A DNA stretch of 53,815 nt, counting the filler, from Bipalium vagum (taxonomy: Eukaryota), in assembly GCA_037834085.1 (NCBI GenBank). It is 3 parts of 3 records of this genome, joined end to end, with 100 filler letters (N's around TTAATTAATTAA, not from the genome) between each part and the next. Parts side by side here need not be neighbours in the genome. Positions count along the whole stretch, not along the records: positions 1 to 18,464 come from JBBMKC010024520.1; 2 more parts are not named here. One strand, given 5' to 3'. Below the pieces are notes generated by a model. It saw only the letters and a program-made list of their open reading frames with translations, had not been told where the DNA came from and did not search any database. Each line of letters opens with the position of its first letter. Position 1 is the stretch's first letter. A program made the translations under genes and the position numbers. Shown one piece after another: positions 1,891 to 35,263 of the stretch.

Positions 1891-2651
1891 TCAATAAAAT
1901 CGGGACCATCCTCCATGTCCTTTGTATGCAGATTTTAATGAGCTATCCACATAAACTGACAGCATACAATACATTTCACGAGAGACCATGAAGTAGAACG
2001 ATTTGCAGTATGGAGACAGCAGACATCTGAAAAGAAAAATCAATGGACGAAAAAAAAAACCAAAAGTATAAGCCTTAATGCACATTCCAAATCCGAATCA
2101 GCTCCATATTTTTCAAAACAACCACTTCCGTTATCCTCATTGAAGATTTTTGAGTAATTTTTCATGAACCATCTTGAATGAATTTGTTTTGTTTCTTCAA
2201 AAACGCAAATAGATTTCTTTTTGTTCGTACAACCACTAGTGGTTAACTTATTTCCATTGAATAGGACACAATCTTTTCTGCCTCCATTTGGATGATCTTT
2301 ATCCCATAAATCAATGTCCTTCATTTCAGTTCCGTCTACTTGCACCCATCCAGTTTTTGACGTGTTTCTCTCATTCAACAGATCATTAATGCCCGTATGA
2401 TACAATGACTTTTCTAAAGCAGATTTAATATTTCTCAACTCATTCGAGAGCGGTAAGCGACCATTCTTCTCAGTACACATCTTCCACGCCTCACACAAGT
2501 CTCCTTCGATGCGATTTACAAACATGCAAGTACCGTTGAACAAAGAAAAAGGCTCGAGGCATAACAAATGCACTTTGTACAGCAGTTGTAAAAAATAAAA
2601 GATAACTTGAATCCAGTCCATGACGAAATGAAATTCATTTGACGCTTCCAT
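1891..2651 (-). CDS. Secreted C-type lectin-domain protein with a C-terminal PAN/apple-like cysteine module; 2 exons (2651 or 2621 to 2074; 2026 to 1891)
   Basis: Hydrophobic N-terminus (MDWIQVIFYFLQLLYKVHLLC). CTLD pattern: C..PF....GTC, AWKMC...GRL, TGINDL, W..DG, W....P....DCV, C......ICVFE. Removing a 47-nt intron (2073-2027, GC..AG) joins ECALR to CLLSPYCKSFYF...C.L, a PAN-like CxxxC motif. Confidence 0.75.
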
Positions 2652-3074
2652 CTTTAAATAATATCTATAATTGAAAAATTAGGCCGACCAATCAAATGAA
2701 AGTATTTCTTACTCTTTTGGTTGGGTTTTTTGTTGGACATTCTGATTTTCTAGAACCAAAAGAAAAATTGTAAACTCCTGACTTGAGTAAGAACATTTCT
2801 CCTTCTGAGATGATCCTTCAGTATTGATGATAAAGATTTGTTTAGTGACATTAGTACTAAAAAAACGTTTAATAGTGCATCTAATAATAAAATATATTTA
2901 AATGTACTTTTAATAATGATTTTTCCTTCTAATTATTTCTTTTTTAGTAATATCTTAATATAATATGTGTTTGTTGAGTTTTGATAAAAAGACACATGTT
3001 ATTGATTAATTGAATTTGTGACATTTTTTATGTAATAGTATTATCCTATTTTGTCAATTATTACAATACTCAAA

Positions 3075-3429: not shown

Positions 3430-3900
3430 CAGTTTGGCTGGGGCGGCTGAGAATAGACATCATCTCCATGGGAACAAAACACACCCCTTAACAATCGTTG
3501 CTGCAACCATCCATACCAATGAGGACCATTTTAGGATACCCAAATATTTTTTCTTAACGACCGCGGAAATAGAAATGCCTTTCCCCAACATTTTAATTGT
3601 GTCCTTAAATCTTCCTCTGTGCATATTCGCAGCCTTTTGTTATCATTTTCAATAATTGCCACGCAACACTAACAAAATCGATATTGCTACGAGGTTTGTG
3701 TAGGACAGGGGTTTAATTGATTCATTTTTATCCTCACTTGGCCATCTCTGTTTTCCTCCAAGGATTACTTCAAGAAGGGAATATTTCTTCTTTTCATCAA
3801 GTACAAAACGCATTAGGTATTTCATTTAGGTTTTCGTTAAAATTTAGGTTGAAAATAATTAATATTTATTATTAGTAATATTTAAAATTAGTTATAATTA
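3430..3900. repeat. ~450-bp duplicated segment, copy 2
   Basis: Direct-orientation similarity to 222-690. Confidence 0.75.
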
Positions 3901-4448
3901 TTCTTGACATTTCCAATGTCTCAAGGATGGTCTGAAAGAGTAATATTGTCCAGCCTAAATATCTTTGTAGTTGCATGAGGAGATTGTTGAGTATTGAACT
4001 CGATAAGGACTTTTAAAGGACTGTTATCAATAGCCGGTTGTCGCTGTGAACGACAATTGTTTTTATCTATTATACCAACGCTTGGCAAACATTTCGTGCA
4101 ACCTCTGATGTATTATATAACAGAAACATTCGAATTTATGCCGTTGTCATTTTTTTAGATCGATTTTTTATAATCCAAACAAGATAAAATAATAATATCA
4201 AGTTCTATTTGAATATAGATTTAGTTTTACCTGTCCTAATATTGTAAATCAATAATTGTGAAATATCAACCGAAATCTGAATAAACCAATGATACCATTT
4301 TATAGACTAAATCTGGCCTCAATATATGTGTTAGGATCCATAGAAAAAATCGTTATCAATTATCTTTGTCCAACGGTCATGTTAACCTTCAATATTATGT
4401 TTGAGGAACCCCTTGTCCTTCGGATAAACTTGTTCTGAATGAACTTAC

Positions 4449-4919
4449 TATTTGTAAATAAAACGACGATCTCTCCGGAATCGATCTTTCCGAGTTGAGT
4501 CACAAATCTGAATGAAAATAAGCACCATAATATGATGAAGGAGAAATGGAATACCTTCCATTTAAAAAGGTGTCAACCAGAGGGTGATCTGGAGCGAAAA
4601 ACCTAAGGTAATTCTGAAAGCCTCTTTCAGATGCTCTTACCGTGCAGAAGTTGTTGATTCTCTTCTGGGCCTTCGCGTAGAAAAATTTCGATGTCTTTAA
4701 GATTTGTAACAGCAAATTGGCATATGTATCACAATGGCCCTTTTATTATAGAACTGACAAAGTCTCCTTACCCGTGGGACATTGAAGGTGAGACATGGAC
4801 TTTACCCACCTGTGCAGACTTTCGATGTGAGCATTGACCTGCGAGGGATCCTCGTTCAGCTCCTTGATTGCCACCTTCCTGGCATTTTCGTCAATCTCGT
4901 ATTCATATTGGTTTGCCAT
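4449..4919 (-). pseudogene. CRAL-TRIO family gene copy A (exons 1-3 only; probable pseudogene)
   Basis: MANQYEYEIDENARKVAIKELNEDPSQVNAHIESLHRWVKSMSHLQCPT, then LLQILKTSKFFYAKAQKRINNFCTVR, then FVTQLGKIDSGEIVVLF, colinear with the copy at 13131-16564. The exon-2 acceptor AG reads AT here (gatacat/atgcc versus ggtacag/atgcc). No later exons were found. Confidence 0.8.
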
Positions 4920-7259
4920 GGAATTTTTATAATAAATAAAGTTTCGTCGACTTCCATATAATATACGTATACATTGCAAAGTCTGACCTTTGTAAAGGTC
5001 TCTTGTTGAACCACATGTCCGTTACATCATAAAATGTGCGAGCTTTGGATATGATACAGATTGTGTAAATGATAACCAAATTAGTCTAAACGAGACTAAG
5101 GTCTCTTCGTCATTCTCCTATTCATATCTGTCGGCCCTGAACCCTTCAATCAGTTAATAAACAATACTTCTTTTGACCTAACAACGTGCCGAAGTATGAA
5201 CTTTGGAAGTTACGGGTGTTGTAACCAACGAGATTTTTGTCCTTTATCTTTGATGAGGTCATTTAAGGTATGCGAATCCTAGCCAAAATAAAAAGTTTCA
5301 TAAAACTCATGAAAGTCTAGCAAAAGGTTTCATGTGACTTATTATGATCAATGTAATGTTTGCGAATTGAAAGGGACAAGGAAGGGAAGTTCCATAGGTT
5401 CAGCACCATATATACTCATCTGGTCTGATTCTTTCATAAGAGTTGAGATCTTAATGAATTCATCTTGTTGGAATGAATAGTTCGTATCATCTTCAGATAT
5501 ATGTACGTACGGTTATCCCCTTGAATCTCCAGTCTTCTGAAAAGAAAATTTTTCTTCCTGAATGGCCAATACTGCGACAGAGAAAGTCAAAAGATAAACA
5601 TCAAGTTCTACTTCTCTAATTTTCATAAAACTGTTAGTAACCTTAACAAAATATGTTGGAGGCTATACTTAGTAAGTTCTATAATATAAGAACTTTCCAA
5701 AAATAGCAAAAACCCACATATTACTCTATTAATGGAAAGTTTTATTTTCCACCAATCAAGAGATCGGGAATGTGAAAATCAGGAGTATACAATCTCTTCG
5801 TTTTCTCATTCAAATTGCAATTTACTTCGCATTAGACAAGTTAAGCTGGTAATAATAAAAGGTACGCTTCGACTATTAAACACGTGCATCGATCTTTTTT
5901 GAGAAAAATCTAAATAATTTAATAATCATCAACGTATTCAGAGCAAATACTCTACAATACGTTCTTTTTATTATATTCTCTCGTTTCTGTTTTTTCTTAT
6001 CTTGATAATTCGATTTCTCTTCGCTCTAGGCGACAGAACTCATATTTCTCACATTAGGGCTTTAATTAATTAATATTGTTATTGTGATAAGATTTTTATT
6101 TGTTTTACAAAATATATTTTTGTAGCAAAAATCGTGACATTTTAGTTGATTTAATTAGACTTAGTTCGTATGTTAGAACACCTATTTGTTACATTACCTT
6201 TGACGTAGTTGGTGAGTCCATTTCTAACCTATATTAATAGTGTTAGGTTTTTTATATTTTCGAGATTAAATCTCACAGTAAACGACGAACCAAACATTTA
6301 CATGTCCAAAGACACGATTATATTAATAGATGTGATAAAAAATTTTGGTTTTCAAGTCTTGTATTTCCAAGACTATCAATGTGAATTGCGCACAGACAGT
6401 TGAGACGAATAAGATGGAAGAGGTCGTGAAAAGCATATATGCAAAAATCTGGTTCATAAGACCATACCATCACAACCCTAATTGCTAGATTGAACGGAAA
6501 TTTATCCTCCTCTGTATCATTTTTTCTAACTGGTGAAGCTTCAGTTGGAGAAATCACAAACTTATCTTATAATGAAAATTAATGGGAGGCCATGGCAGAC
6601 GCGGTTGACCCTGCCTTCTTCGTTGCTCATAGGAAGGCATTAAAATAACATTTGTGAGATACCTCAAATATATATTTATGACATTTTTTTACTTAATAAC
6701 CATTATATTTTTATTCCACACCAAAAGCTGACCCCTTCAATCATATTTATTATTTGCAAATATAAATAAGTATATAATTAAGCTGGACATATATTCTGTC
6801 TTGTGAATGAAGTCCTATTACTACGTAAGCATGATGAGCATAAAAGTTGAAATAAAAGAAAAATATTAGAAGACGTTCTCAATTTTGTATACGTCCCTCT
6901 TTTGTCCAAAGTTTCCGATTCGAAATCCGAATGGCTGGCTAAGAAGATCAAAGTCTCCTGAGGTCGTTTCGATTCATCTACACCAATGGATTGAAGAGGA
7001 TGACCATTCTCATAAAACTCTCCGAACCTTTTACTGAACCTTTCTATAAGAAAAATTAATTCCACTGACCACATCAATGCATACCGGCGTATTCGTCCAA
7101 TGTGATCCCTTGACCGTTGAGGTCTTTCGGTAAAACTTTCTCAAGTCCCGCCAGTTTTTCAGTAACTTTTGAGATGTTATGGCTGAAACGGGAGGTCTTA
7201 ATGGATTTTTTTATCAACATTGCTAAAGCATTTTTTTCGGTCATATATTTTCATTTTTA

Positions 7260-9001
7260 GATACAAACCAATGCAATCATTTAATTCCTCAAAATGTATC
7301 AAGTCAACAAGTTCCCTATTATGTGTATCAGGAAGCAGAGTACTTCCGAACGACTGTAAAAAAATGTATTTTGTATTTTATTGTGGAGGGAGATATCATA
7401 CTTCCATCCTGGGAACAAAAATGATGCCTCGCGAATTGCTAATTAGTAGAGAAGAATGCGAAAATGCCTTCAAGTACAATAAACTGCAAATTGATAGTAC
7501 ATTGTCTATTCACGTTGCACCAAATACGATATCGCGAGAAACATTAGTCAGAGGAGTTATTTATTCAGGTGGAAGTTGTCAAGGAAAGACGGTTAATTGA
7601 CAAGGTCAACAATTAGATAACGTAGTCAAAATAGAGGACCACGAAGTCGAGCTATTGATTTATGAGGGTACATTTAATACAGATACAGGAATTCTAACAA
7701 ATTACCCATCATGTCAAAGCAAAAAAGAATATTGTAGGACATCAGGAGCCACACTATTGTATAATGCTCCGCCAACCGAATGTAATCTCAGACTCTTAAA
7801 AAGAAGTTAGTTCACAGAGATACACGGAGTCCTAGTCGAACCTAAAGCCAGTAGCCTAACAAAACTAGACAAAAATTTTCGCTCACAAGGTGTCAGGATG
7901 ACACAGTCAAATGAACAAGTTATCCCTTCTGTTCTTATTCAACAAAAAGAACAGATGAGATTTGTCAGAAAAGACAATATATTTAAATGTGGTCAAAACA
8001 TGTTCACTACAAATTATAAGGGAATACTTGTATAACAACAGCCTGCAGAAGGGGCACAGAAAAAAGATACAATAGACATCAAATTAGCTCAATAGGTAAA
8101 CAATAAACTGGATTTTGTTTACCATGATTTGCAATCACAATTAAAGGAAATGTATACGGAAACAGTCCTCAATGATTGTAAATTAGCCCAATAAATACTT
8201 CGAAACCGGTTATTGATAGCAGTAAATAATCCGGAATTAGCATCACCCTTTTTATTGAAGGAAGGAGTGTTTGGGCGAGTAATGGGAGAAGCGTTATATA
8301 CATACAAATGTCAAATGTATGAAGCACCGGTAGCAAAATATAATGGTTGTACCAATGATTTACCTATCATACACAATGGTGAATTACGATTCGCCGCGCC
8401 AATCACTGGGATACTACTTAAGAAAGGTCTCCAAGCAGCTAAGTCTGTATGTGGACCTGTACACCCTTATATAAATTTGGAAGTCAATGAGTGTCTCTAC
8501 CGGAAAGGAAAAGTCCGCGTGAAAAAGTGTATACGCTCGAAGGAATTAATTTAGACAGTAATTTAATTCTGACCAATAAACAACCTCAATGAAGGAGGTA
8601 TTTATACTGAAAAAAGATTAGAGGAAGCCAGACGGTCAATATTGTTTCCTCCAACTCAAGAGAGAAGCTTTCACGAAATCATATCCCAAATTTATAACCA
8701 TCAGACGAGAAAGACTGATTATAATTTATTATTTGGCCCAGATCATTACGTCAAAGCAGCCAAAAGCGTAATGCAATATATATGGGGTGGATTCAAAAGC
8801 TTCGGAACAATTGTAGCTGGATTTTCAGGAATCTATTTTTTATGGCTAATATTAAAAACCGTCATATCAAGATTCATATCATGTGCAGATTTATATGAAA
8901 CAATGGGATTTACATGGAAATTAATCCTTGGTATATGCCCACCGTTTGCAAATAATGTATTACATCGTAAACACCGCACAGAGATACGGTCGTTACGGTA
9001 G
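7260..9001 (+). pseudogene. Chuvirus-like / gB-type (class III fusogen) envelope glycoprotein, 5'-truncated, with in-frame stops
   Basis: Reading through stops gives FYCGGRYHTS..SREECENA..GGSCQG..KCGQNMFTTNY..VNNKLDFVYHDL..NDC..NPELA..GRVMGEALYTYKC..CTNDLPI..FAAPITGIL..GGIYTE..LFP..WGGFKSFGTIVAGFSGIYFLWLILK (TM)..GFTWKLILG. This is the motif series recalled for chuviral glycoproteins and related retroelement envs. Confidence 0.78.
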
Positions 9002-9339
9002 GTACATCTAAATAATTGTTTTACGGTGATAAGACCACCATCTCCAATTTATCGAGAGGATAAGCTTACAAGGAAGGGAGAGGACATATCAACAGAACCT
9101 CATAAAATATATAAAAAATACGAGCTACAAAATTTTAAACAAAATTTTCCGGTAATAGGAGAAGCTCCGCTATCTGCATTACCTCCATATAAGGTAAACA
9201 GTTTACCAAAATTATCAGATGCAGCACACGGCGATACTTTCAGAAAACCATTATATCCAGCTCATGATATAAAAACTCTGAATAGACAATATGAAGAGGA
9301 ACAGAGAAGATTGGAACAAGGTATTCCTTCACTTTATTG

Positions 9340-9700
9340 TTTTATGGCTCTAAATCCCATAACAAATGAGGATTTACGACCAACAATAAAAACTCGAATA
9401 AATAAGCATCATGTACATGCACTAATAGATACTGGTTCACAATCAACCCTATTAGATGCCAGAATGCTTAACCAACAGGAAAAAGAAAAGGTGCAGAGAA
9501 CGGACAGTACAATAATAGGGATAGATGGTAAATGAATGCCACTATTAGAAACCCTAGAGTGTATTGTTACGATCTTAGATCAAAAGGTCTTGCATAACGT
9601 GGATATTATGGAAAATAATTCCAATGATTGCATCATAGGTATGGACCTACTCTCAAAATTACAAAATCTTACATTAGATTTTGCAACAAAACAATTACAG
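9340..9700 (+). pseudogene. Retropepsin aspartic protease
   Basis: HALIDTGSQSTLL, IIGIDG and DCIIGMDLLSKL; one internal TGA at 9533-9535. Confidence 0.9.
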
Positions 9701-10149
9701 GTCAACACAAGAAAAAGTAAAGCTTGTGACTTGGCAGAAACAGTAGTAATTGAAGAGATTACTAAAATTCCACCTAGATCAGAACAAATCTGTCTAGTAA
9801 GTACGAATTTGAAAGAAGGAGACGAATTAGTCTTCGAACCAACCTTAATAAACAATAAACATGAATATATTGTGGTATGTAACAGTGTTGGCATAGTAAA
9901 AAATGGAAAAATTCCAATCAGAGTAGCCAACCTGGGTATAAAACAAGTAGTTTTATTACCCATTACTAAGATGGGTACAGTAAATAAATACGAATCAGCA
10001 GTTCATACCACAGAAAAGTCTAAATATAAATATTATGAGCCTGTAAAGGTAGAAACTCCTACCTTGACAAAAGAGCAATAAGAAAAATTTACCTCTTTGT
10101 TGCGAAAATATCCAACAGTGTTTGCCAAACACAACTTTGCCAAACACCA

Positions 10150-11430
10150 CAATTTTAAAACATAAAATTCCTCTATTGGATCAAAATCCAATTAAACAAA
10201 GGCCGTACAGAGTACCATATGCTCTAATACCCGAAGTGGAAAAGACTATTGACACTTGGCTTGAACAAGATATAATCAGACATAGCTCATCACCATGGTG
10301 TTCACCTATGTTGTTGGTTAAAAAGAAAGGAGGTGAATGGCGGCTATGTATTGATTTTCGTAAAATAAATGAGGTGACAATAAAGGATAACTATGTATGA
10401 TACATTAATGTATGTATGATACATAAATGTATGATACATTAGGACGATTTACTATATTCAGTACGATTGACCTACAAAGTGGATACCTCAATATTGAAAT
10501 AGAAGAGGACACAAAACCAATAACCGCTTTTGTGACCAACAAACGGCTATTTGAGTTTAATAAAATGCCGTTCGGTCTCACGAGCGCGCCAGCAACTTTC
10601 CAGCGGTCCATGAATATAATGGTAATGGACGTAGATCATGCTATGGTGTATATAGCTGACACCATACTTTATTCAGAATCCTTTGAACATTTAAAAAATG
10701 TTGAAAATGTGTTAAAAAGGATAAAAATTGGAGGTTTTAAAAGACTGGGGAAAATACCTAGTTAAATATCTCGGGCATGTAATATCGGCAAAAGGGATAG
10801 AACCAGATCCCGATAGTGTTAAGAAAATTATCGATACACTAAATCCAAAAACAGTTAGAGATGTACAAACTGTATTGGGAATCGGTAATTATTACAGAAG
10901 GCAAATAAAAGGATTTGCATCCATAGTAGCCCCAATTACAAAACTGTTACGTAAAGAAACACCATTTTTATGAGGAAAGGAACAAGATGATGCATTTAAA
11001 TTGTTAAAACAGAGGTTATCCGAAAACCCAGTTTTAAGATATCCAGATTTTTGTAAACCGTTCCTTCTCATGACAGACGCTAGTGGTGTAGCCATCGGAG
11101 CTGTATTAGGCCAAAGAGATGACAATGGTATTGAGTATGCAATAGCCTATGCAAGCCGTGGTCTTAAAAATCACGAAAAACACTATGCGGCAGTAGAATT
11201 GGAGTGTCTTGCGAAAATTTTCGCTATTGACAAATTTAGAACTTATCTATGGAGGCGGAAGATAATAATTCTTATCGACCATAACCCATTGCAATATTTA
11301 TTAAAGCATAAGGATTCGACATCCAAGCTCGTCAGATGGGCACTCAAATTACAACCTTACTATTTAGAAATACAATATCGTAAAGGAAAGGCGAACACCA
11401 ACGCCGATGCCATGTCGAGATCATCATTCG
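10150..11430 (+). pseudogene. Reverse transcriptase and RNase H (frameshifted)
   Basis: ORF pieces 10122-10400, 10427-10765, 10728-10973 and 11001-11498 carry consecutive Gypsy RT/RH motifs. Confidence 0.93.
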
Positions 11431-11534
11431 CAACAGAAAATGATTTAGTGGCAAACCTCGTAAAAACAGTTTGTGCCGTACGCAAACTAATACTATAGAT
11501 AGGTTAAAAGTTATAGATAGATAGATAAGATAAG

Positions 11535-11859
11535 TTAATTTATCCACCAGAAAAACATTGTCTCGTATACGAAAAAAATACTACTGGCCAACAATGTGCG
11601 AGGACATTAAAAAATGGTGTAGAACATGTCCAGTATGTCAAACACAGAGAAATACAGGGGAAAGCTAAAAATGCCATTAAAGCCAATGCTAGTTCCACAA
11701 GCACCCATGGAAACAATTGCAATGGGTATAACAGGACCATTTTCGGTATCCATAAATGGGAATACTTATATTTTGGTCATGTGCGACTATTTTACTAAAT
11801 GGCCTGACGCTTATGCCATACCAAACCATCAAGCCAGCACAATAGCAAAATCGAAATGA
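11535..11859 (+). pseudogene. Integrase fragment (Zn-finger C-terminal half and first part of the core)
   Basis: KYYWPTMCEDIKKWCRTCPVCQ, then PMETIAMGITGPF...GNTYILVMCDYFTKWPDAYAIPN; truncated before the second catalytic Asp. Confidence 0.9.
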
Positions 11860-13130
11860 GATGACATATAAGTTCCATTTTTTAAAAATGTTTTTAATTA
11901 ACTTTTTTTAAAAAGAGAACGATGTCCGCCGTCTTTGCTTTTTCCCTACCTTGTTGGATACTTCAACAGGTTTCTCGTTTGTCTTTCTAGTGGTCGAATG
12001 ATAAACCGATGCAAAATAGTCAAATACTCAAAGTGAAGTCCCTTACCAGGCTTTAAACATGTTTTATGAAGTCCCTGCACTGAGCTAACCCTCTCAGATG
12101 TGCTTTGCAATTTATGAGACCATAAAATGTTAATCTCTTTAGTCAATTAAAGGCATTGCCATATCAAAATAAAATGACGGTATTGCCCACATTGATCATT
12201 TCCAGTGGAGTATAAAATCTGAATTAAAATACGTAGGACAGTTGGGTGAAGTGGAAAGGGTATAATTTCCTTTTAAGAGAGTATCAACCAGCGGATGAAA
12301 AGGTCGAAAAGTTAAAGGTATTACTGTGCAGGCGTTGTCAATTATTTGGCACCTGTATCACAGTGAGATTATTATTATTGAATTGACAACGCCCCATGTA
12401 CACCTTCATAGTAAAACAAGACTTGGATCTCGAGGAACCTCAAAAATATTATCTGATGTTCATAAAAACATCTGATCAAATAACGATGCAAAGATTTGTA
12501 GTGCAGATGTAAAATATATAAAAAATGGAATATATCTAAGCCAGATAAGGGAGAAAGAGAGAAACATTTATAAGAGTTATTTTCCAATGTTCTTTTACTT
12601 TCCCGACCGTATATGAATGATGATAAGTCAGTGATATTGCTTTGGAGGTTCAGAACAATGCCCTCTACAACGCACATTTAAAGGTTATCATGTTACCATT
12701 GACGTCAGCAGAAGGTATTATTGTTTCACAAACCATAAAAGTTCATGAATATGGCATTCTCATTTAGTAAGTATCGGCATCTGTATCGTTTTTTCTAACT
12801 GGTGAAGCTTCAGTTGGAGAAATCACAAACTTATCTTATAATGCAAATTAGTGGGAGGCCATGGCAGATGCAGTTGGCGATGACTTCTTCGTTTCTCATA
12901 GGAAGGCATTAAAATAACATTTGTGAGATACCTAAATATATTTTTATGGCTTGTCTTTATTTGATAACTCTTATTTTTTTTCTACACCAAAAGATGACCC
13001 CTTCAAATCAAATTTATTATTTGCAAATATAAATAAATATGTAATTAAGCTGAATATATTCTGGCTTGTGAATGAAGTCCTATTACTACGTAAGCATGAT
13101 AAGCATAAAGGATGTAATAGAAGGAAAATA

Positions 13131-16100
13131 TCAGAAAACGTCCTCAAATTTTGTATAGGTTCCTCTTTTGTCCAACGTTTCCGAGTTGAAATCCGAATGG
13201 CTGGCTAAGAAGATCAAAGTCTCCTGAGGTCGTTTTGATTCATCTACGCCAATTGATTGAAGAGGATGACTATGCTTATAAAACTTTCTGAACCTTTCAT
13301 TGAACCTCTCTATAAGAAAAATTAATTCCACTGACCACATCAATGCATACCGGCGTATTCATCCAATGTTGCCCCTTGACCGTTGAGGTCTTTCGGTAAA
13401 ACTTTCTCAAGTCCCGGCAGCTTTTCAGTAACTTTTGAGATGTTATGGCTGAAACGGGAGGTCTAAATGGATTTGTTTTATCAACATTGCCAAAGTATTA
13501 TGTTATTTATGAAGAGAATTATCATTAAAAACACATTTGAAAAGATTTTATTTTTGGTTTATCTTTTACAATATTCGACCACTCCCCATCGCCTGAGAGA
13601 CTCCTGGATGCTGAAGGTTAGATAATAAAGTGTGAAAAAATGTCTTCGTAAAACCTTTTTTCAAATAATTAGTCTTCGTCTCATCAAAAAATGGGAGTCT
13701 ATCTTATAAATTCTTGTTTCAAACATTTTAAAAAATAACTACTGAAATGTACTATTGATTAATGCTTTATGTCAGTAGTCAGTTTTTCAAAGGCATTAAC
13801 ATTGACTTGAAAATGTTGAGAAGATAAAAATATACTCTAAAATCTAAAATAATATATTCACCATATTCACCAGATCTGGCATCATCTGATTATTACCTGC
13901 TTTGGTCCCTACAAAATGTTTAGACGGAAAAGTTTCAATTCCAAGGAGAAGGTCAGAAATCACTTTGATCTGTTTTTCGTGAGAAAAGATTTAACCTTAT
14001 AAGAACGTGGAATTCTGTAATTCACTCAAAGATGGCAAAGGTTGTTGGGCGAAAACAATCAATATGTAACTGATTAAAAATATGTTTACCAAAACGCAAT
14101 TTTACTTTGGCTTTTATTGTTGCTTTCCGAACAACCCAATACTAATCGATAAAATACTAATGGTGGAAAACCAAATCACTCAAAAAATGAAACGACATAC
14201 CATTCTAGTGGCTGTCCTTGGCACGATCAGTTGTATATAAAGTACACCAAGAGCTTCTATCCGATAATGGAAAAACTTTGTCAAGAAAATAGAGCAGACT
14301 GTTGAGGGAAACCATAGACATTTCATGAGGTCCCTTGACAACAAATTCAAGGAATCAGGGAGAACAGCCAGAAATGTTGTTCATGAAAATACGAATCGTA
14401 CGTGTTGAAAAAAAGACAATTTCTTTCAAAAAATTAAAAGAATCGCTCATTTAAATCGAAATGCTTCTAACCAAAACACACATTCAGTCAAAAATATATA
14501 ATTTGCTTTTTCAGAGATGAAATAAATTTCGACCAAGATCAAAAGGTTAACAGAATTAATAATCGATGGTTATCTTAAGAACCCTCTGAAGTACCAACAA
14601 AATAGTTCTAAATTTAATTACAGTCAAATTTCGTTAATATGCCACTCTGGCTATTATCCCACCTTTACTGGGTTCCGAAAAAATTAAATAAAAATTAGAT
14701 TTAATACGCCACCCCTACTCTCGCTACTCTGCTACTATTGTGTGACTGTAAAAGGCACAAATCTGTGTAAAATAAGTCTGTATTTTTGCGTGTTCAGGTC
14801 AAGCATGCGATGCTTTCCACGATAACACTGTAATACGCCAGTTACAACACGTACAGTGACAAGTCTTCAAGCAAAAGCTTAAAAGAAACCCACAAAAGTG
14901 CGAGCACGCATACACACAATCACACAATATAGACATCATTATTTTTCAAATTCAACCCATAATGTCAGCGTAAAAACGTCAGGAGAAAAGAGACACAGTC
15001 TGACATTCACGAAAATAGAAGAGAATAAAAATTACTAATGAAGTCTTCTCAAACTTTGTTGAAGTAATACACTCTTGGATTCGTTTTATGGTTCGCCAAG
15101 CTTAGTTTATCATTACTATCATAAATTGAAAACCACCCTAATGAACACATCACAGAGAACATTACGGACCGTTATGGTTCGAGGTTAACGGAAAACTGAA
15201 AATGGTATGACCCATCCTGTTTAAATGGTATTTGGATAGTCATACTAATTGGAATGGTCATATTATTTGGGGCCATCTGTTAGAATTCCTCTTAGAGAGT
15301 TAGAGACATCCAAGTATTAAGACTAACCCATAATTTGACTATTTTTATAACTTACCCTTTTCCTCATTTTATCATTCAAGAAGAACGAAATCATCTGAAA
15401 GATCAGATCAAACAGGGCAGAGTCACTGTGGAATATTTGGCCTTTCACTCTTACGGGGTAGGAGTCCTAAGAATATCGTTATCATCATTTAAAGAAGGAA
15501 TATGTTGAATCAAACTTGTAAAATGGTATAGCCAGCCTTAAAGTCGTTAGGATTGCAAACAGCCTCCATGACCTTCTTATTAAGTCCGCAAAAATTGAAC
15601 AGAAATCTTACTCCGAAGATTTGACTCTCCTCTTCCGATAATACTACTTCCAGAGCCATGAAACTGAGCGCTATCAATTTCCTAAAGGTAACGGTTTCAG
15701 GATCCCAATCAGCTGCAAAAGATGTGAAAGAAGATAAAAATAATCTCGTAATAATTTCGTCTAATTGATACAAAATATGAGTTCCATTTTGGTAAGCGAT
15801 TTCAATTGGTGTATCTCTTTAATAAGAACGAGGTTGTCTTTAGTTACCTCTATATTCTCGGCTTGATCACCCTTTGAAAACCTAAATGTAGAACCCCGTC
15901 AAATTATCGGAGACTGTTCAACTTCAACCAATCTGATAGTCATTGTCTTTCACAATTAACATTTTATTCACCAGCACTTTCAAAGGGTAAAAACTTTTCA
16001 AAAGGTCCCTGCAGTCACTAAACCTCTCAGAATTGATTTGTTACACCAAAGAGCTTAAAACTTTATTCCATCCATTAAATTAAGAGTATTACCATATTGA

Positions 16101-16564
16101 AATAAAATGACGGTCTCCCCCGAATCGATCCTCCCCAGTGGAGTAAAAAATCTGAACAAAAATAAGCATGACATTTTAGTGAAGGAGAAATGGTATACTT
16201 TCCCTTTAGAAAGGTCTCAACCAGTGGATTAACAAGGTCGAAAAGTTCAAGATAATCCGGAAAGCCTCTTTTAGATGTCCTTACCGTGCAGAAGTTGTCG
16301 ATTCTTTTCTGAGCCTTAGCATGGTAAAATTTCGATGCCCTTAAGAATCGAAGCAGGAACTTGGCATCTGTACCACAGTAAAATTTTTATTTATGGACTG
16401 AAAACGCCCTCCTTACCCATGGGACATTGGAGGTGAGGCATGGACTTCACCCACCTGCGCAGACTCTCGATGTGAGCATTGACCTGCGAGGGATCCTCGT
16501 TCAGCTCTTGGATTGCAACCTTTTTCGCCTTTTCGCCAATCTCGTATTCATATCGGTCTGCCAT
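13131..16564 (-). CDS. CRAL-TRIO (alpha-tocopherol transfer protein/clavesin-like) lipid-binding protein, copy C, apparently intact, 7 exons
   Basis: Spliced reading: MADRYEYEIGEKAKKVAIQELNEDP..PHLQCPM / DAKFLLRFLRASKF..(CRAL-TRIO N) / FFTPLGRIDSGETVILFQY / ADWDPETV..ESQIFGVRFLFNFCGL.. / DSYPVRVKGQIF..FFLNDKMRKR / TSRFSHNISK..VLPKDLNG.. / ..VDESKRP..RGTYTKFEDVF*. GT-AG boundaries keep the frame at the junctions checked. Confidence 0.88.
13780..14139 (+). mobile_element. mariner 3' remnant with right TIR, inside a CRAL-TRIO intron
   Basis: YSPDLASSDYYL motif at ~13864-13900. Ends in ctttccgaacaacccaa followed by TA, the same terminus as the MITE at 41449-41671. Confidence 0.75.
14250..14600 (+). 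mobile_element. Tc1/mariner-superfamily transposase remnant
   Basis: ICFFRDEINFDQDQKVNRINNRWL resembles the FSDEK.F....N.QNDR first-Asp motif. Confidence 0.55.
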
Positions 16565-17259
16565 TAAACTGTCTGCAAAAAATGATAAAAAAATGCTAAA
16601 GCCTGACCTTCAGCAACTATTGTATCTTTGATATGATCACCTATAATCATTGGTACTACCATTGTTATGTCATGCGTGTCAAGTCAAAACATACGTTAAG
16701 TCAAACAAGTCTCTCTAAATGTTTCACATGGCTTATTATTTAAAATGTAATATTTACTCGTTTGAAGAGACTAAGGGGGCTGCAGATGGTCACAATCAGC
16801 AACCATGCTCGCCTGAGGATATATTCATTAGGGTTGACTTAAGCACTGGACATCATGCTCTCCATGAAACCGACGGATTTCCACCAAAGAGCGTTTTTCA
16901 ACTTCTACATGAAGGGTTGCTAAGCCGAATCGATATTATTTTAATAAATAGAAGTATTAAAAGCTGTTGGACTTTTGCTTACCTTTTCTTGGTCACAGAC
17001 CACAGGACACATATTCAGGAACTAAAATTAGCTTATTTCTCGAAGGGATACAGGGTGCGCCAGATAATTTGGTAAAAGTGTGAAAAGAAGCACAAATGAG
17101 TTTTATATTTCAACAAAAATCAATTTTATATATTGAAAACCGAAACACAGTGCTGATCTTTTCAAACGGTCACAAACCTTCACTTGTTCTGTTTCATTAA
17201 CCACTGCAACTACAACTCCTCTCGGAGCTACTCTTTCTGGGAACAGAGCAAACTTTCTC

Positions 17260-17577
17260 AATCCATCTTGAATGAATCTTTTTTCTTCATAAACTCAAAT
17301 ATAAAGTTGTTTTGTGTAACAACTTTCTTTTAATTAGAACACAATCTCTTCCTTCTATCTTTGGTTGACCTTTAGCCCACAAATCTATATCCTTCATTTC
17401 AGTTCCGTCTGGTTGCATCCATACCCTCTTAGACGTGTTTCTCTCGTTCAACAGATCATTACTGCCAGTGTGATACAATGATTTATCTAAGGAGGATTTA
17501 GTTTTTTTTAATTCATTCGAAAAGTGGTAACCGACCATCCTTCTCAGTACACATCTTCCACGCCTGCTTTTACACAA
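17260..17577 (-). pseudogene. Degenerate second copy of the C-type lectin gene
   Basis: Nearly identical KSLYHTG.NDLLNERNTSK..W.Q.DGTEMKDIDLW to the gene at 1891-2651, but frameshifted and truncated at both ends. Confidence 0.85.
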
Positions 17578-18464: not shown

Positions 18465-18564
18465 NNNNNNNNNNNNNNNNNNNNNNNNNNNNNNNNNNNN
18501 NNNNNNNNTTAATTAATTAANNNNNNNNNNNNNNNNNNNNNNNNNNNNNNNNNNNNNNNNNNNN
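18465..18564. other. Artificial assembly spacer (44 N + TTAATTAATTAA + 44 N)
   Basis: Exactly 100 bp; the 12-mer places stops in all six frames; identical to 35164-35263. Confidence 0.97.
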
Positions 18565-19359: not shown

Positions 19360-20280
19360 TATGAAGGTAAAGCAATGCAATATAAATTTCTTCGTTGCAA
19401 CTTTAACATGAAATAACTTATGGGCTACCGAAATCCACAAATTTCTTGTAGAAAGTTGGGGAACAGAAAACGTCGTCAGCCTTATGAGAGTACAGTAGAT
19501 GCCAAAGAGTTTACAGAAGAATAACGAATACTTTTAGACAGAAAGTGGTTCAGGAAGTCCAAGAACGAACACCACAGAAGAGAGGACCTGCCGAATATGA
19601 TTTCACATTTTCAAACAAGACTACTTATTTTGGAAATGATTATTCAGCATGACAATGTCAGACCTCACGTTACATAGTTGATTCGACTTTGGTTAGCAAA
19701 AAGTCGCGTGTCTCTATTAAACCAGCCGATATACTCACCAGACACAAACCTCGTGGATCGCTTTATCTTCAGAAACTATGAGTGCTACGAACACCACAGA
19801 AGAGAGGACCTGCCGAATATGATTTCACATTTTCAAACAAGACTACCTATTTTGGAAATGATTATTCAGCATGACAATGTCAGACCTCACGTTACATAGT
19901 TGATTCGACTTTGGTTAGCAAAAAGTCGCGTGTCTCTATTAAACCAGCCGATATACTCACCAGACACAAACCTCGTGGATCGCTTTATCTTCAGAAACTA
20001 TGAGTGCTACAAATGTGGAAAAAACTTCAGTAATTCAGGAGAAGTGAGTAATAATTTCCGCCAATATCTGGAGTCAACATCGGAGGAGAAGCTCACAGAC
20101 TATTTTCACAATATTATGCGTTACCTCCGGATTTTTATTGAAGCTGATGGAGACTGTGTTTAAGCTCTGCTGTGCTTTGCTAACACATTTAGTATAACTT
20201 CACATGTGATCTTCACAAATAAATGTTTCAATTTGTATATTTTTATTAGATTTTCATGAGATTTTTTGTTGGCCCCTATA
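19360..20280 (+). mobile_element. Internally deleted mariner-like element containing a 222-bp tandem duplication
   Basis: QHDNVRPHVT and QPIYSPDTNLVD (HDNARPH and YSPDLAP.D motifs) each occur twice; units 19565-19786 and 19787-20008. Confidence 0.8.
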
Positions 20281-24040: not shown

Positions 24041-24736
24041 AACTGTTTGTTGTTCTCAATCAGAACATTTAAATTAAATGAAAACTAATATCCGATTTGA
24101 AACTATTTATTAATAATAAAGCAATAAAAATAATAATGATAAAAATATTGACAGCAAAATTTAAAAATATTGGCAAAAACGTTACCAAACACGTGACATA
24201 ACAATAAATGCATTTTATTGCTAATATACGATGCATCCATACACACTACTGTCGTATGTTGCATGTTGATTGGTGTAACATGTTATCTGAGCATATCATC
24301 AAATACATTTTGCACGTATGTACAAATACACACACAATCAGACTATTAAAATTGGATACAAAAATATTTATCTACAAACACACAACTCTGTACAAAACTT
24401 AAATGCATAGCGCACACACACACACGAAACGAGACGAACAAATTGTCTAGTTTACTCAAAAAATACCAAAGATAAAAAACTTAAAAAAACATCTTAGATA
24501 CATCCATTAAGCATTGTAGAAAAGCATAATTGACAAAAATTAGAAAATTGATTGATTATAATTTCCAAATTTGTAATTATTGACAAAATCCTGTTTATCA
24601 GTTTATGTAAAATATAAAAAACCTTTCAATATCTGTTTTACCGATCCACTACTCATAGAAATGAAATTAGGTTTTATACATAAAACCAAAATAAAATCAG
24701 ACTTATTATATACATATGTGCGAATTATTAAAACAT

Positions 24737-26582
24737 TTAATGTCGGTTGTACTCTCTTTCTGACGACAGATCATCGAAATGTGGCTGAACCTCGTGCAAC
24801 AGCTGAAAAGAAAGATTAAAATCATTGTCAAGCTGGGTACCAGTGTTACTTTAATATCTTGGTATTGATTGGAATAGTCCTCGAAATGGTTCATTTTGAA
24901 CAATGCCGGCGATGGATAGTTGGAAATCATTTGTTGGGGAATTTGTCTGATATAATTATTGCAGGGCTCGACAAATAATGAGTTCAGCTCATTATATGTC
25001 ATGGTAGAAGCATTGTGTGATAGTTGGGATTCAGGGGTCAACGAACGACTTTTACTATCCGACCTGTTGTTATCATATGTAGATGTACTATTGGAAAAAA
25101 TCAAAAATGAGTTTTATTTTTTTTAATAAAAAATAATTACAATTGTTCAATTATCCAATTTTCTAAATTTTTCAATTGTCGGAAGACTTCACTTATTGTT
25201 TCCATGTTAGCTCCGTTTATCGATGCACGATTGAACAGGTACCCACTGACCAGAGCATTAATTGCATCATCAATACCCGGTAGAGATGGCAACACACGAA
25301 TAATGGCATCCTTACCACCCATATTAATCGGTGTACTTTTTGAAACTGAAACTGGTTCATTAAAATCATTTTTTAATTTTAATAAAATCAATACATTTAA
25401 GGCCATTCAATTTTTCTTCACATTTGATACGTTTTTCTTTAATTTTTGAAACCATTTCAGGATCGCCCTTAATTTTTTTGTCCCTCCAATCTCTACTTGG
25501 ACAAGCACAACTTCTAAATTGAAGGCACTGTCTTCCAACGACGTCGAATTTATTTACTCTGAAATCAATTTTAATTCAATTATATAATCAATATTTGATA
25601 CAATTTTTAATTAATTAATTATTGAACTAAACAAAATCAATAAATAATAGACTAAGAATATTTTTCATTACTTTTTGTCGTAAACTTCTAGGGTAATAAT
25701 CAAGTAGAGTGTTTTACGGCCACCAGAATCTTGATTAAAGCAACTGTTATAACAGGCGAATTGGCAATTGACAGAAGAAGAAGATTCTCCTTCAGCATGC
25801 TTTTCGAATGGTAGCAAAATACAAACCCTCTTTGAGGCCGAATCTTGAAAGTAATGTGCGCACGTTTTTTCAACAATTAACATGCTTCGATTTTTCCAAA
25901 TGTTATCGTCTGATATGACCTCTTTATGCTTTGGACATCTATCATTAAATTGAAATACATCTATCATTGAAATGAAATATACCGTTCTAAAATGCATTGA
26001 GCTTTTTCTGGATCTCCGAAAACAGGCACAAGTCGAATGAACATATTTTCAGTGGGCATGGAAGGATCTGTGGAATAATTCAATCGCCAATAATGAGGTT
26101 GTGGTTTTGTAAACAATTGATGATTTCCCATTTTATCGGTTTGGAACTAGGAAAATAATCTTCATTAATATCATATAAATATAAAATTATGCATACCACA
26201 CAAGTCTGGCCTTTTCGCTTAGCCTCATCGTATTCTCCGTTCGGAACGAAAATCTGGAAATTGAATTGACCGGAATACGGGGATCTATATCAATAGCGAA
26301 TTGAAATGGAAAATTATTAAAAAACGAGATATACAATGTCGGCATGTCGTCGGACTTGAAAGATGGTGACATTGTATTGGATGAAATAATCGGTTCGACA
26401 ATGTTTGTCATATTGTGAGAGTTGGATTCGGATGAATTGACAAATGGCAAAATATGAACCGGTGCCATAGTCTGGTTTTGATTGCATTGCATTGGGACAA
26501 TCATTTCTACAGGCGATGATTTATAATGCATTGGTGTCTGTTGGTGTTGTAAGGAAGAAAAGGTTTGATCATATGATGCAGT
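24737..26582 (-). CDS. p53: p53-family transcription factor (divergent, flatworm type); 8 exons visible, first exon not located
   Basis: Spliced reading gives MPTLSPYSGQFNFQIF..AKRKGQTCV / ..LFTK..IRLVPVF..ILER / CPKH..CILLPFE..CQFACYNSCF..GGRKTLYLIITLE.. / VVGRQCLQFRSCACPSRDWR. All four Zn ligands and the RxCACPxRD DNA-binding motif are present. Confidence 0.92.
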
Positions 26583-29500
26583 CTAATAAAAAAACAAAAT
26601 ATCAAATCAAAAAATCAATCAGTGACATAACCAATAATCTGATCATGATATTAAATAATTAATCTTCATTAGTTTAAAGATTATATCAATAATAATAATC
26701 CCGATAATATTGACTGAACTTAAGAATGGCAACCGAAAAAAATCATGATAAAACAGCTTCAATAAGTGTGTGTATATGATATTCTAATATTTACAAAAAA
26801 TGTACCATATTCGAGTAAATATTGAAATACACACCGGATTCAAAGCTACTATCAATACAAATATGGACTGATACAGGCTGCAATCACATTATATCAACAA
26901 ACCTAAAATAGTATCAACCCATATCAAGACTAATCAACGAGTTAAGTCACATTGATAGCTCAGTAGACATTTCCAGGTATATATTTATATATTATAGTTC
27001 AATAAAATGGTCCATTTTACAACATGATATCATGAGGTGTCGTATGTTTAATCAATTTTCTTATATTCGATAAAAAATAATTATCGTTACTATTATTATT
27101 GAAAGTATAAAATAAAAAAATCATACTATATATTGTTGGGCCATCATTAAAAGTCGATACAGGTTACAGGAAGAATCCAATTATTTAAAACGTTTTCTGG
27201 TTGAAAATGGTGTTCACGTTAATATTTTAAATAGAAATATCAAAAAACAATTACACAGCATTAATTTTATTGGTCGCAGATTTTTAAACACACACAAAAA
27301 AATTTGTGTTTGAGTCTTATGATTGGGTGCCAGATATCATCAATAGGTTAAGGCTCAAGCTCACTGCAAACACCATAACCGTAATTTGAAGTACGTGTGC
27401 GGGTGAGTATATGATGGACTCATTCCAGTGGTTAAGAGGGGGTTGATAAACATATGAGATACGGAGCTTGATAACTAAGATAAAGGCCGGTGTTTCTGTG
27501 CAGACTTGCTGCTATAATCAATCACTCATCTCTGGTCTCCAAATAGTAGCAAAGTATTGATATTGTGGGCTGCTTGTTGCTGTTATCATTTTGTTGTTTT
27601 TTATCATCCTGAATCAATATTGAACATCTCAACATGGCGTCATTAAGCACATTATCGATGAAGTCACATTTGAGTATCATTCTCTTTTACGATGGATACA
27701 ATTTAGTGTTATGATCTGACCCACTCGTAAATCATAAGTCAAATACAATTATTGAGTTTAAGTTAAAATTCAATTTGCATTGGTATTGGAATACACCTGG
27801 AAGTTAGGCACCGATAAAATACTTGTGGCTCTACTTAATAAAAAAAATAATGCGTATCAACGGCAAAGAAACGTTAAACAATAAATGAAGCATTACTCTA
27901 AAAATTATCAATTTATTCAAGTTTATTGAATCGTGTCTTGTATTTTTTGTTTTTTGGCTTTTATAATCAAAATGTTTAAGTAATAAAATTGAGATTACTA
28001 AATTGTGTAATAGGGTAATTAATTAATTAATTAAATTTTGTTTGAAACGTTCTACTTTTACAAAGCAATTTTAATATCCGTAAACTTAATTATTGATTAT
28101 TTCCTATTTATTATTTATTAATAGTGAACTTAAAAATAAAACAAATAGATATTTTCTTGAAGAAAATAAAATGACATCTAGGATAATGATGATAATAATA
28201 ATAAAAATAAAAAAAAATAAAAATAAAAATAATAATAATAAAATAAAGTAAATAATAATAATAGGTTAATGATCAAAGGCTAATAAAATGCCATGAATTT
28301 GTAAAAAATATAATTAGAAATGTGAAGTAACAGAAATATATTAAAAAATATTTTTTATTAGAATAATATTTCACTTTTAAATAGAAAATTACCTTACATA
28401 TACAACAGAGAGAAATGAAGAGTCCTGAAAATAACTTGAAAGATAATGCCAAAGTATACATTTGAAAAATATAACAAGTCAAGTATAATAAAGCCAATAG
28501 ATAATATCAGGATATGAAAAAATAGATTTCGTTATTGTTTTAATCAGTAATTAAATTAATGTTTCAATTTAGTTTTAATGTTATTTTATTTACATTATTT
28601 TAGGCATAGCTTAAATAAAATCGTTCATAAATGATTTTTTCCAGTTTTCATCTTCTAAAGAAATTCAAATCAGGAGATGTCTAGTTTTTTGGTTCATGTT
28701 TCATCAAATAAATGATTCTGCTACTACTAGAATTTCTTTTCCATATGTTGATAAACTATGTTAAATTTTACAATATAAAACAGATTTAAATGTTCTTAGC
28801 TGGTGTAGCAGTTAGTCGGAACAACAATATGATTTATTTAATAATCACACATCCAAAATGTCCAACTAACAGTAATATCAGTTCGAAATACCTTAAGCAC
28901 TCGTGTTAATCGCACAAGAATTCATAAAGAATCATAGTACTCAATATAAAAAAAATTAATTATCAAATGACTCAATTATAATAGTGTAACAATTGGTTTG
29001 AATGGAATGTTTAGACAAATGAAATTAAACTTATTTACGAGTTAAAAGATAAAAACTAAAAATAATTAACTTTAGTCACCAAAAAGAAAAGTTAACAGAT
29101 CCATGGGTTTCTAGTTAGAGGACCGAGTTTATCGGGATCAGTTGCATATCCTAAGAAACAAACTTACAGGTAAAATAACAAACAAATAAATGTCTGATTC
29201 TTAATCTTCACAATTAAGTAGAACTTCTGAATCGTAGTCTTCGCAATTGTTGTTTATAATCTTAGGTCCAAAGTTACTGACTTTACGCTTATTGTTTTTA
29301 ACGTATATCTATACAAATGAATCAAAATAATCAAAATAGCATTTTTCGATTATGATTCAAGACGAAAATCACAAGAACACTCAAATCATATAACACGAAT
29401 GAAAATCAAATTGGTTGTTCAAGTAGCCACAGAATGATAAACAAGTCAAATGTAAGTTAAATAAAAAAATGTGTAGAGTCCCAACTCTGGGGTTGGAATC

Positions 29501-35163: not shown

Positions 35164-35263
35164 NNNNNNNNNNNNNNNNNNNNNNNNNNNNNNNNNNNNN
35201 NNNNNNNTTAATTAATTAANNNNNNNNNNNNNNNNNNNNNNNNNNNNNNNNNNNNNNNNNNNN
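35164..35263. other. Artificial assembly spacer (44 N + TTAATTAATTAA + 44 N)
   Basis: Same structure as 18465-18564. Confidence 0.97.

What the first reader, a model, noticed from the sequence alone, without database searches (positions are those of the whole stretch)
7260..11859. Gypsy-type retroelement with a viral class III fusogen placed upstream of, and in frame with, the protease of pol (env-PR-RT-RH-IN)
Seen: ORF pieces starting at 7220, 8213, 8642, 9026 and 9536 all share one reading frame. A Cys-rich glycoprotein with a C-terminal TM segment therefore runs, across isolated stops, straight into the DTGS protease; RT, RNase H and integrase follow through decay frameshifts. Known: in retroviruses and classical errantiviruses env is a separate ORF 3' of pol, and gB/chuvirus-like glycoproteins have been captured by some invertebrate LTR elements. 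Inference: the ancestral element encoded a (Gag?)-Env-Pol polyprotein with Pol attached to the cytoplasmic tail of a chuvirus-like fusogen and released by PR. That would be an atypical, possibly infectious endogenous retrovirus lineage in a probable flatworm. I cannot confirm from here that it is undescribed.
Basis: partly seen in the sequence, partly recalled or inferred. Interest (0 to 1): 0.9.

Follow-up and report, generated by a model that had tools for sequence, protein, structure and literature searches.

The report
Decayed envelope-first retroelement in a planarian
This is a broken, end-clipped copy of a flatworm retrovirus-like element whose membrane-fusion protein is made in one chain with, and ahead of, its replication enzymes; the layout is odd but already described in these worms.

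Summary
Window 7373-10138 is one frame (11 stops in 922 codons, against 77 and 66 in the other frames). It encodes a chuvirus-like class III fusogen (PF24664, E 1e-62; herpes gB and chuvirus G are the top fold hits), a TM segment, an open linker and the DTG protease. RT, RNase H and a clipped integrase follow across frameshifts. The junction is ancestral: 13 of the 150 listed fusogen hits carry a protease downstream in the same unbroken ORF, and 5 run on into RT. The host is a dugesiid planarian, and one run holds many related copies. This copy has no gag or LTRs; the flanking 735-bp repeats are host CRAL-TRIO exons. The layout is published: in-frame env between gag and pol in planarian Burro elements (PMC6431247), and GAG-ENV-POL gB-type errantiviruses in flatworms, nematodes and bryozoans (PMC13524379). 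Verdict: a dead fragment, a new member of a known kind. Not found in my searches: the polyprotein's membrane topology, with Pol tethered to the Env tail, and, in relatives only, repeated proteases and a second, FN3-like membrane protein after integrase.

The parts
7239..7373 (+). N-terminal piece of the fusogen ectodomain, in a different frame from the rest; the 5' end (signal peptide, gag, LTR) is missing
   Evidence: tblastn of P0002, P0005, P0006, P0007, P0008, P0153 in frame 3, 31-43% identity
7373..8998 (+). Class III fusogen (chuvirus G / herpes gB type): ectodomain, membrane-proximal helices, TM (about 8810-8866) and short amphipathic tail; 8 in-frame stops
   Evidence: PF24664 E 1e-62; AlphaFold pLDDT 85.8; Foldseek gB E 2e-4, chuvirus-like G E 3.7e-21
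8999..9380 (+). One stop codon, then an open in-frame linker from the Env tail to the protease
   Evidence: 0 stops in 126 codons against 10 and 10; TM-to-catalytic-Asp distance 188 aa, against 108-364 aa in 12 unbroken relatives (worked out)
9380..9700 (+). Retroviral-type aspartic protease (DTG at 9428), one internal stop
   Evidence: PF13975 E 7.8e-5, PF00077 E 8.3e-4
9716..9985 (+). Small domain between PR and RT, at the position where a dUTPase-like domain was reported in Burro; identity not established
   Evidence: Shared with P0004, P0006, P0011, P0153; no Pfam hit; only unnamed Atlas clusters
10137..10970 (+). Reverse transcriptase in three frameshifted pieces; catalytic motif not intact
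   Evidence: PF00078 E 1.6e-15; 48-59% identity to relatives
10974..11420 (+). RNase H of Ty3/gypsy type
   Evidence: PF17917 E 7.9e-36, PF17919 E 1.1e-32
11537..11868 (+). Integrase zinc-finger remnant and the start of the catalytic core; clipped at the 3' end
   Evidence: tblastn to P0004, P0006, P0153; PF00665 E 1.8e-3
6503..7237 (-). Left flank: 3' exons of a host CRAL-TRIO-like gene copy (not an LTR)
   Evidence: 90% identical to 12772-13504; both belong to a tandem gene array; the C-terminal motif reading is from recall
11870..12394 (-). Right flank: decayed 5' part of the same host CRAL-TRIO-like gene copy
   Evidence: 73% to 15988-16254 and 79% to 16361-16409; weaker alignment on to about 11851 / 15760

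Best explanation
A dead fragment, clipped at both ends, of a multicopy Ty3/gypsy retroelement of the Gag-Env-Pol single-ORF type (Burro-like / gB-type 'errantivirus') in a dugesiid planarian. It sits antisense inside the middle copy of a tandem CRAL-TRIO gene array, in place of about 2.2 kb of host DNA. Likely working of the active lineage: one long ORF is translated. Gag stays in the cytosol. An internal signal peptide threads the class III fusogen into the ER and is cut by signal peptidase. One TM segment returns the chain to the cytosol, so PR-RT-RH-IN hang from the Env tail. Env trimers at the budding membrane bring Pol into the particle, and PR, once clustered, cuts itself and the enzymes free. 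The fusogen lets particles pass between cells, probably into stem or germ cells. SHOWN: domain order, single frame, the same order in unbroken relatives, fold class, host group, many related copies, dead state. INFERRED: signal cleavage and topology (about 0.8); Pol packaging through the Env tail (about 0.55); enveloped cell-to-cell spread (about 0.5).
For: Frame statistics. PF24664 E 1e-62. Fold hits. Of 150 listed G hits, 129 reach the TM end, 21 have 130 aa or more after G, and 12 carry a downstream protease by my scan, plus P0008 by Pfam. All 11 such long-tailed proteins among the 18 best hits have it. P0004, P0006, P0016, P0020 and P0153 run unbroken G-PR-RT-RH-IN. Gag or CCHC signals lie upstream of G in P0002, P0004, P0005, P0008, P0012 and P0020. 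A hydrophobic, signal-like stretch precedes the mature-G motif in 13 of 13 relatives by eye (7 of 12 by hydropathy scan). The window's G falls inside the clade of polyprotein Gs (18 rows, SH-aLRT 99). For the RT palm, 5 of the 7 best matches have G upstream in the same ORF. Host p53 piece is 78% to D. japonica and 72% to S. mediterranea. Summed contig depth is 627-1589 over the element, against 20-115 in the non-repetitive flanks, and the contigs laid on the env-PR junction stop do not share it. Literature.
Against: No gag, LTR or primer-binding site in this copy, and no genome was available to see a full-length copy of this family. RT-RH tree support for grouping with the G-linked Pols is modest (96/61, not starred), and P0016 and P0020 fall outside that group. 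Global TM-scores to gB are low (0.20-0.26), and the best VIA-align Z for gB is 6.7, below the tool's level of 8. No signal-peptide predictor was run. The one run may be the window's own source, and its depth is not a copy number. No experiment on processing or infectivity was found.
Confidence: 0.9

Rival explanations
1. A one-off chimera: a chuvirus-derived endogenous glycoprotein gene joined by deletion to an unrelated gypsy pol, in frame by chance.
For: This copy is heavily decayed and clipped at both ends; an in-frame join happens one time in three by chance.
Against: 13 of 150 G hits have the same G-PR order in unbroken ORFs. G and RT each point to the same relatives. The linker is stop-free in that frame only. 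Related contigs cover G, linker and pol at similar summed depth.
Confidence: 0.02
2. Env and Pol are in frame but separated by a programmed read-through stop at 8999, so Pol is made at a lower level, as at the gag-pol junction of some retroviruses (recalled).
For: A stop lies just after the Env tail, where such a signal would be useful. P0014 and P0009 end at or near the Env TM region.
Against: The 2 contigs listed at this codon in run X1 do not have the stop. Ten other stops are scattered through the same frame. Twelve relatives cross this junction with no stop.
Confidence: 0.05
3. The family is env-first but spreads only inside cells; Env serves as a membrane anchor for assembly, or is a relic.
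For: No infectivity data exist for these elements; PMC13524379 says the transmission mechanism is unknown outside Drosophila. Relatives have only 1-3 sequons.
Against: All 9 relatives counted keep 14 ectodomain cysteines, and a full-length class III fold is predicted at about 30% pairwise identity, which implies selection on the fusogen structure.
Confidence: 0.3
4. The 735-bp direct repeats (6503-7237, 12772-13504) are the LTRs of a 7-kb gag-less, non-autonomous element.
For: They flank the coding region as 90% identical direct repeats.
Against: They belong to a tandem host array in which other CRAL-TRIO exons are also duplicated. About 900 bp of host gene lie between integrase and the second repeat. 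Their read depth is near single-copy, unlike the element's.
Confidence: 0.03

Closest known systems
Burro / GYPSM1 giant gypsy-like elements of Dugesiidae (PMC6431247, section 7 read; Grohme 2018 and Jurka 2007 seen only as cited there)
   Same: Same host family; env in frame between gag and pol; env hits mononegavirus fusion glycoproteins; extra domain between PR and RT; decaying fragments already noted in D. japonica. Relatives of this G carry Bcl-2-like (P0009 E 9.6e-4; motif in P0003, P0014) and ankyrin (P0153) domains, as Burro does.
   Different: This copy is a 4.6-kb fragment with one protease and no accessory domain between G and RT, more like the compact P0004. Size, Gag and accessory domains cannot be seen. 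No direct comparison with Burro1-4 sequences was possible.
GAG-ENV-POL HSV/gB-type errantiviruses, group Platyhelminthes_C1a (PMC13524379; sections 5 and 9 part 1, section 22, passages, and rows of supplements 1, 2 and 6 read)
   Same: gB-type env ahead of Ty3/gypsy pol. Nine flatworm elements are listed, six from S. mediterranea with 1-215 copies. By eye, the six published ENV rows share the window's motifs and eight cysteines over that region. ENV-POL hits are also tallied for D. japonica and Girardia tigrina.
   Different: Those are intact elements; this one is dead. That paper allowed gaps of up to 2 kb between ENV and POL, and the passages read do not state a single ORF or a topology. Identity to the six rows was not computed.
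Nematode NERVs (Sacco et al. 2022, doi 10.1099/jgv.0.001739; text not held, seen only as cited in PMC13524379)
   Same: Env placed before pol. A continuous gag-env-pro-pol ORF is my recollection of the abstract, not checked.
   Different: Nematode hosts; PMC13524379 finds that GAG-ENV-POL elements are not monophyletic.
Anakin BEL/Pao elements with chuvirus glycoprotein (PMC7642597, search listing only)
   Same: Same PF24664 fusogen family captured by an LTR element (passage).
   Different: BEL/Pao backbone, with G after pol (recalled; P0064 has DUF5641 before G). Here the Pol is Ty3/gypsy and G comes first.

Membership tests
Ty3/gypsy (Metaviridae) | Pol order PR-RT-RNase H-IN | tested here: met
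Ty3/gypsy (Metaviridae) | RT/RNase H of Ty3/gypsy type | tested here: met
   PF17917 and PF17919; named hits include 17.6-, 297- and Tf2-type polyproteins
Ty3/gypsy (Metaviridae) | LTRs, PBS and gag | tested here: inconclusive
   Absent from this copy, which abuts host gene sequence at both ends; no genome to look at other copies; gag or CCHC present in 6 relatives
GAG-ENV-POL HSV/gB-type errantiviruses (PMC13524379) | HSV/gB-type (class III) ENV | tested here: met
   PF24664 E 1e-62; all 5 PDB Foldseek hits at E <= 0.001 are herpes gB; chuvirus-like G E 3.7e-21; VIA-align only middling, Z 6.7 at rmsd 14.0 over 315 residues
GAG-ENV-POL HSV/gB-type errantiviruses (PMC13524379) | ENV upstream of POL | tested here: met
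GAG-ENV-POL HSV/gB-type errantiviruses (PMC13524379) | Cysteine pattern of the Platyhelminthes_C1a group | tested here: met
   By-eye match of eight cysteines and surrounding motifs with the six S. mediterranea rows; no alignment computed
GAG-ENV-POL HSV/gB-type errantiviruses (PMC13524379) | GAG upstream of ENV | tested here: inconclusive
   5' end lost in this copy; 5 hits at E 0.14-0.68 outside the element, all chance-level
Burro elements in the strict sense | Dugesiidae host; env in frame with PR | tested here: met
Burro elements in the strict sense | dUTPase-like domain between PR and RT | tested here: inconclusive
   A domain of about 90 aa is there, but has no Pfam hit and only unnamed Atlas clusters; the single-sequence model failed, pLDDT 30
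Burro elements in the strict sense | 25-30 kb length; ORF of about 4,900 aa with MATH, BIR, BCL2, ankyrin | not testable with these tools
BEL/Pao Anakin elements | BEL/Pao-type pol with the glycoprotein after it | tested here: not met
   Ty3/gypsy-type RNase H and G upstream; 0 of 150 G hits had a PR or RT matching my Ty3/gypsy queries upstream of G
Chuvirus endogenous viral element | G nested among stand-alone viral Gs, without retroelement genes in its ORF | tested here: not met
   G groups with polyprotein Gs, apart from 37 mostly stand-alone rows, and is in frame with PR
NERV (Sacco 2022) | Nematode (Chromadorea) host; monophyletic RT clade | tested here: not met
   Host is a planarian; the RT clade was not tested, as the paper and its sequences were not held

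The most novel reading that the evidence does not exclude
This lineage is an enveloped retroelement built like a flavivirus polyprotein. A single ORF crosses the ER membrane several times: Gag, signal, class III fusogen, TM, 1-7 proteases, RT-RH-IN, a second signal, an FN3-like ectodomain, TM. Pol is then packaged through the Env tail at 1:1 with Env, and a second, post-integrase membrane protein acts as the attachment partner of the gB-like fusogen. The second protein is seen only in relatives (P0004, P0006, P0153, P0161, P0162; P0016 has a tail without the motif), because this copy's 3' end is lost. FN3 support is weak: fn3 E 0.003 in 1 of 5 tails, and a related beta-sandwich family at E 0.06-0.16 in 2 of 5. 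I did not find this topology or the tail in the passages read or in searches.
Probability: 0.3. Interest if true: 0.6.

Novelty: new member of a known kind. Interest (0 to 1): 0.22.

Why it matters
As a locus it matters little: a dead fragment of a kind already reported in this host family. It adds a divergent family (G at most 35% identical to the relatives in the tree) and confirms, with a predicted fold and natural unbroken relatives, that the planarian env is a chuvirus/gB-type class III fusogen in one ORF with Pol. The open question it points to is real: how an env-first polyprotein is threaded, processed and packaged, and whether such elements move between cells in animals that reproduce through adult stem cells. 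The post-integrase membrane protein in relatives is a candidate answer to how a lone gB-like fusogen attaches to cells, which PMC13524379 leaves open.

Tried and rejected
No genome is held for this window, so sister copies, gag and LTRs could not be located. phmmer of G against PDB sequences gave 0 hits at E <= 10. The VIA-align wide search gave no Z >= 8, and the list was filled by the C-terminal helix. The single-sequence model of PR plus the next domain failed (pLDDT 30) and was not searched. The Atlas gave only unnamed clusters for 9704-10000 and no usable hit for the P0162 tail. None of six short motifs from the published S. mediterranea ENV rows occurs in the 157 proteins held at that point, so those exact elements are not among my hits. 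No RNA holder was listed. Sacco 2022 is not held. Earlier scan notes gave nothing in 3 look-ups. The flanking repeats as LTRs, a chance chimera and a programmed read-through stop were considered and rejected (see rivals). Rows left out: the RT-RH tree used the 70 best of 127 hits; the G tree used the 55 best of 105; the folding alignment used 89 relatives out of 151. P0154 was labelled G-linked in the RT tree because its Pol is near-identical to that of P0153, but it has no G itself. Figures of the papers were not visible, including the Burro domain map and the cysteine-bridge figure, and they may show features that I call unreported.
Full report
1. Observation. Over 7373-10138 it has 11 stops in 922 codons, against 77 and 66 in the other frames, and the linker 9002-9380 has 0 of 126 against 10 and 10. 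Pfam on 13 separate ORF pieces gave PF24664 (Monjiviricetes_fusion) for three collinear pieces, then aspartyl protease, RVT_1, RT_RNaseH and a weak rve. Read through with X at stops, 7202-8998 scores E 1e-62 against PF24664. tblastn with natural relatives shows that the first 50 or so codons of that frame are not env: the homologous piece, 7239-7373, is in another frame. Pol is broken near 10137, 10395-10427, 10741, 10971, 11500-11540 and 11650, and ends at about 11868. The RT catalytic motif is not intact. The copy is dead.

2. The fusogen. An AlphaFold model of 7373-8998 (90-row alignment) has pLDDT 85.8 and pTM 0.57, with beta-rich N-terminal domains, a 30-residue central helix and C-terminal helices. 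Foldseek against PDB gave 5 hits at E <= 0.001, all herpesvirus gB (best E 2e-4, probability 0.98), but TM-scores are only 0.20-0.26. Against viral models the best hits are chuvirus-like glycoproteins (E 3.7e-21). VIA-align gave gB at Z 6.7 (rmsd 14.0, 315 aligned) and PRV gB domain IV at Z 6.2 (rmsd 4.5, 132 aligned), with nothing at Z 8 or more. Sequence search of PDB found nothing. Class III assignment therefore rests on the profile hit and two Foldseek searches, with poor global superposition.

3. The junction is ancestral. A search of 1.84 billion representatives found 754 proteins at E <= 0.001, and 150 were listed. Of these, 129 reach the TM end, 21 continue for 130 aa or more, and 12 carry a downstream protease in the same ORF by my scan; none had a PR or RT matching my queries upstream. 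Pfam adds P0008. P0004, P0006, P0016, P0020 and P0153 are unbroken G-PR-RT-RH-IN chains of 2146-4844 aa. Gag or CCHC signals precede G in six relatives. In a G tree (55 best of 105 rows) the window lies in an 18-row clade (SH-aLRT 99) made of the window, 14 G-then-PR rows and 3 proteins that end at or before the TM region, apart from 37 mostly stand-alone Gs. In an RT-RH tree (70 best of 127) it joins 8 rows that include 4 G-bearing polyproteins and P0154, with modest support (96/61); P0016 and P0020 lie outside. The TM-to-catalytic-Asp distance is 188 aa here and 108-364 aa in 12 relatives.

4. Host and setting. A p53 piece at 25668-26045 is 78% identical to D. japonica P53 and 72% to SMED-P53, the only 2 hits among 25 candidates, so the host is a dugesiid planarian. 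The 735-bp direct repeats around the element belong to a tandem array of CRAL-TRIO-like genes on the minus strand. The element lies in the middle copy, where host sequence matching about 13504-15760 of the next copy is missing. No gag or further element sequence occurs elsewhere in the window (5 chance-level hits at E 0.14-0.68). One run, X1, which may be the window's source, holds the region. Its contigs match the flanks exactly at depth 20-27, and one bridges the right junction. Summed depth is 627-1589 across the element, against 20-115 in neighbouring non-repetitive bins. The tool warns that this is no copy number; I read it only as many related copies at 85% identity or more. Of 591 difference rows, 40 were shown; they fall in 5 of the 11 stop codons, including the one at the env-PR junction, so these breaks are not shared by the contigs laid there.

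5. Mechanism. In 13 of 13 relatives a hydrophobic, signal-like stretch directly precedes the mature-G motif (by eye; 7 of 12 by hydropathy scan). A hydrophobic segment closes the ectodomain in all 13 relatives scanned and in the window. By established membrane-protein logic this leaves Gag cytosolic, G luminal and PR-RT-RH-IN cytosolic on the Env tail. I infer signal-peptidase release of G (about 0.8), packaging of Pol through Env with self-release by PR (about 0.55), and enveloped cell-to-cell spread (about 0.5). None of this was tested. The rival, that Env is only an assembly anchor or a relic, stands at about 0.3; 14 ectodomain cysteines in 9 of 9 relatives argue for a kept fold.

6. What is known. 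PMC6431247 (section 7 read) describes Burro elements of Dugesiidae with env in frame between gag and pol, hits to arthropod and fish mononegavirus fusion glycoproteins, a dUTPase-like domain between PR and RT, and decaying fragments in D. japonica; it calls this the first such case. PMC13524379 (sections 5 and 9 part 1, passages and supplement rows) catalogues GAG-ENV-POL gB-type elements in Nematoda, Bryozoa and Platyhelminthes, with nine flatworm elements. Its six S. mediterranea ENV rows match the window's motifs and cysteines by eye. Sacco 2022 was seen only as a citation; its single-ORF claim is recalled. PMC4402516 (first part) and PMC5408684 (passages) were read and did not bear on this layout. 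I file the locus as a fragment of the GAG-ENV-POL gB-type kind. Strict Burro membership is open: the dUTPase-like domain is inconclusive, and size and accessory domains are untestable.

7. What may be new. In relatives only: 1-7 protease motifs per polyprotein (Pfam finds 7 stretches in P0153), and a post-integrase extension of signal, ectodomain and usually a TM. An FN3-like motif occurs in 5 of 7 proteins checked (P0020 ends at integrase), with weak Pfam support. Two searches and the passages read did not show these features, but figures were not visible.

8. Verdict. A real feature, correctly read, of a kind already published for this host family: new member of a known kind, interest 0.22. 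Most novel reading: probability 0.3, interest 0.6 if true.

Noticed in passing
P0004, P0006, P0016, P0153, P0161, P0162 (relatives; region after integrase): The polyproteins continue after integrase into a signal-like stretch, an ectodomain and usually a TM. An FN3-like motif occurs in 5 of these 6; fn3 E 0.003 in 1 of 5 tails scanned. It may be a second envelope or attachment protein.
   Followed up: partly
P0002, P0003, P0005, P0006, P0007, P0012, P0153: Two to seven aspartic-protease motifs per polyprotein, some after integrase or before G; the window copy has one.
   Followed up: partly
P0009, P0003, P0014, P0153: Bcl-2-like region just before the env signal (P0009 E 9.6e-4; motif in P0003 and P0014) and ankyrin in P0153, both Burro hallmarks.
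   Followed up: partly
window 4445-5021, 6503-7237 with 12054-12394, 12772-16564 (minus strand): Tandem array of three CRAL-TRIO-like gene copies; the middle one is disrupted by the retroelement.
   Followed up: partly
window about 5650-6340: Very high-copy short repeat: summed depth above 50,000 in run X1; possibly a MITE or SINE.
   Followed up: no
window about 13550-14500: Probable mariner transposase remnant (motif near 13865 recognised from recall); raised depth.
   Followed up: no
window about 24700-26600 (minus strand): Planarian p53 gene exons (PF00870 E 1e-10).
   Followed up: partly
window 2040-2678 and 17246-17565; 226-683 and 3445-3896: Duplicated C-type lectin exon (PF00059) and another 79% duplicated segment.
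   Followed up: no
P0004, P0161, P0168: These retroelement polyproteins are labelled as bacterial MAG proteins (Flavobacteriaceae, Turicibacter, Flavobacterium); probably animal contigs binned into bacterial genomes.
   Followed up: no
window 19565-20008; 18465-18564; 35164-35263: A perfect 222-bp tandem duplication, and two pairs of 44-N runs around the same short core; likely assembly features.
   Followed up: no
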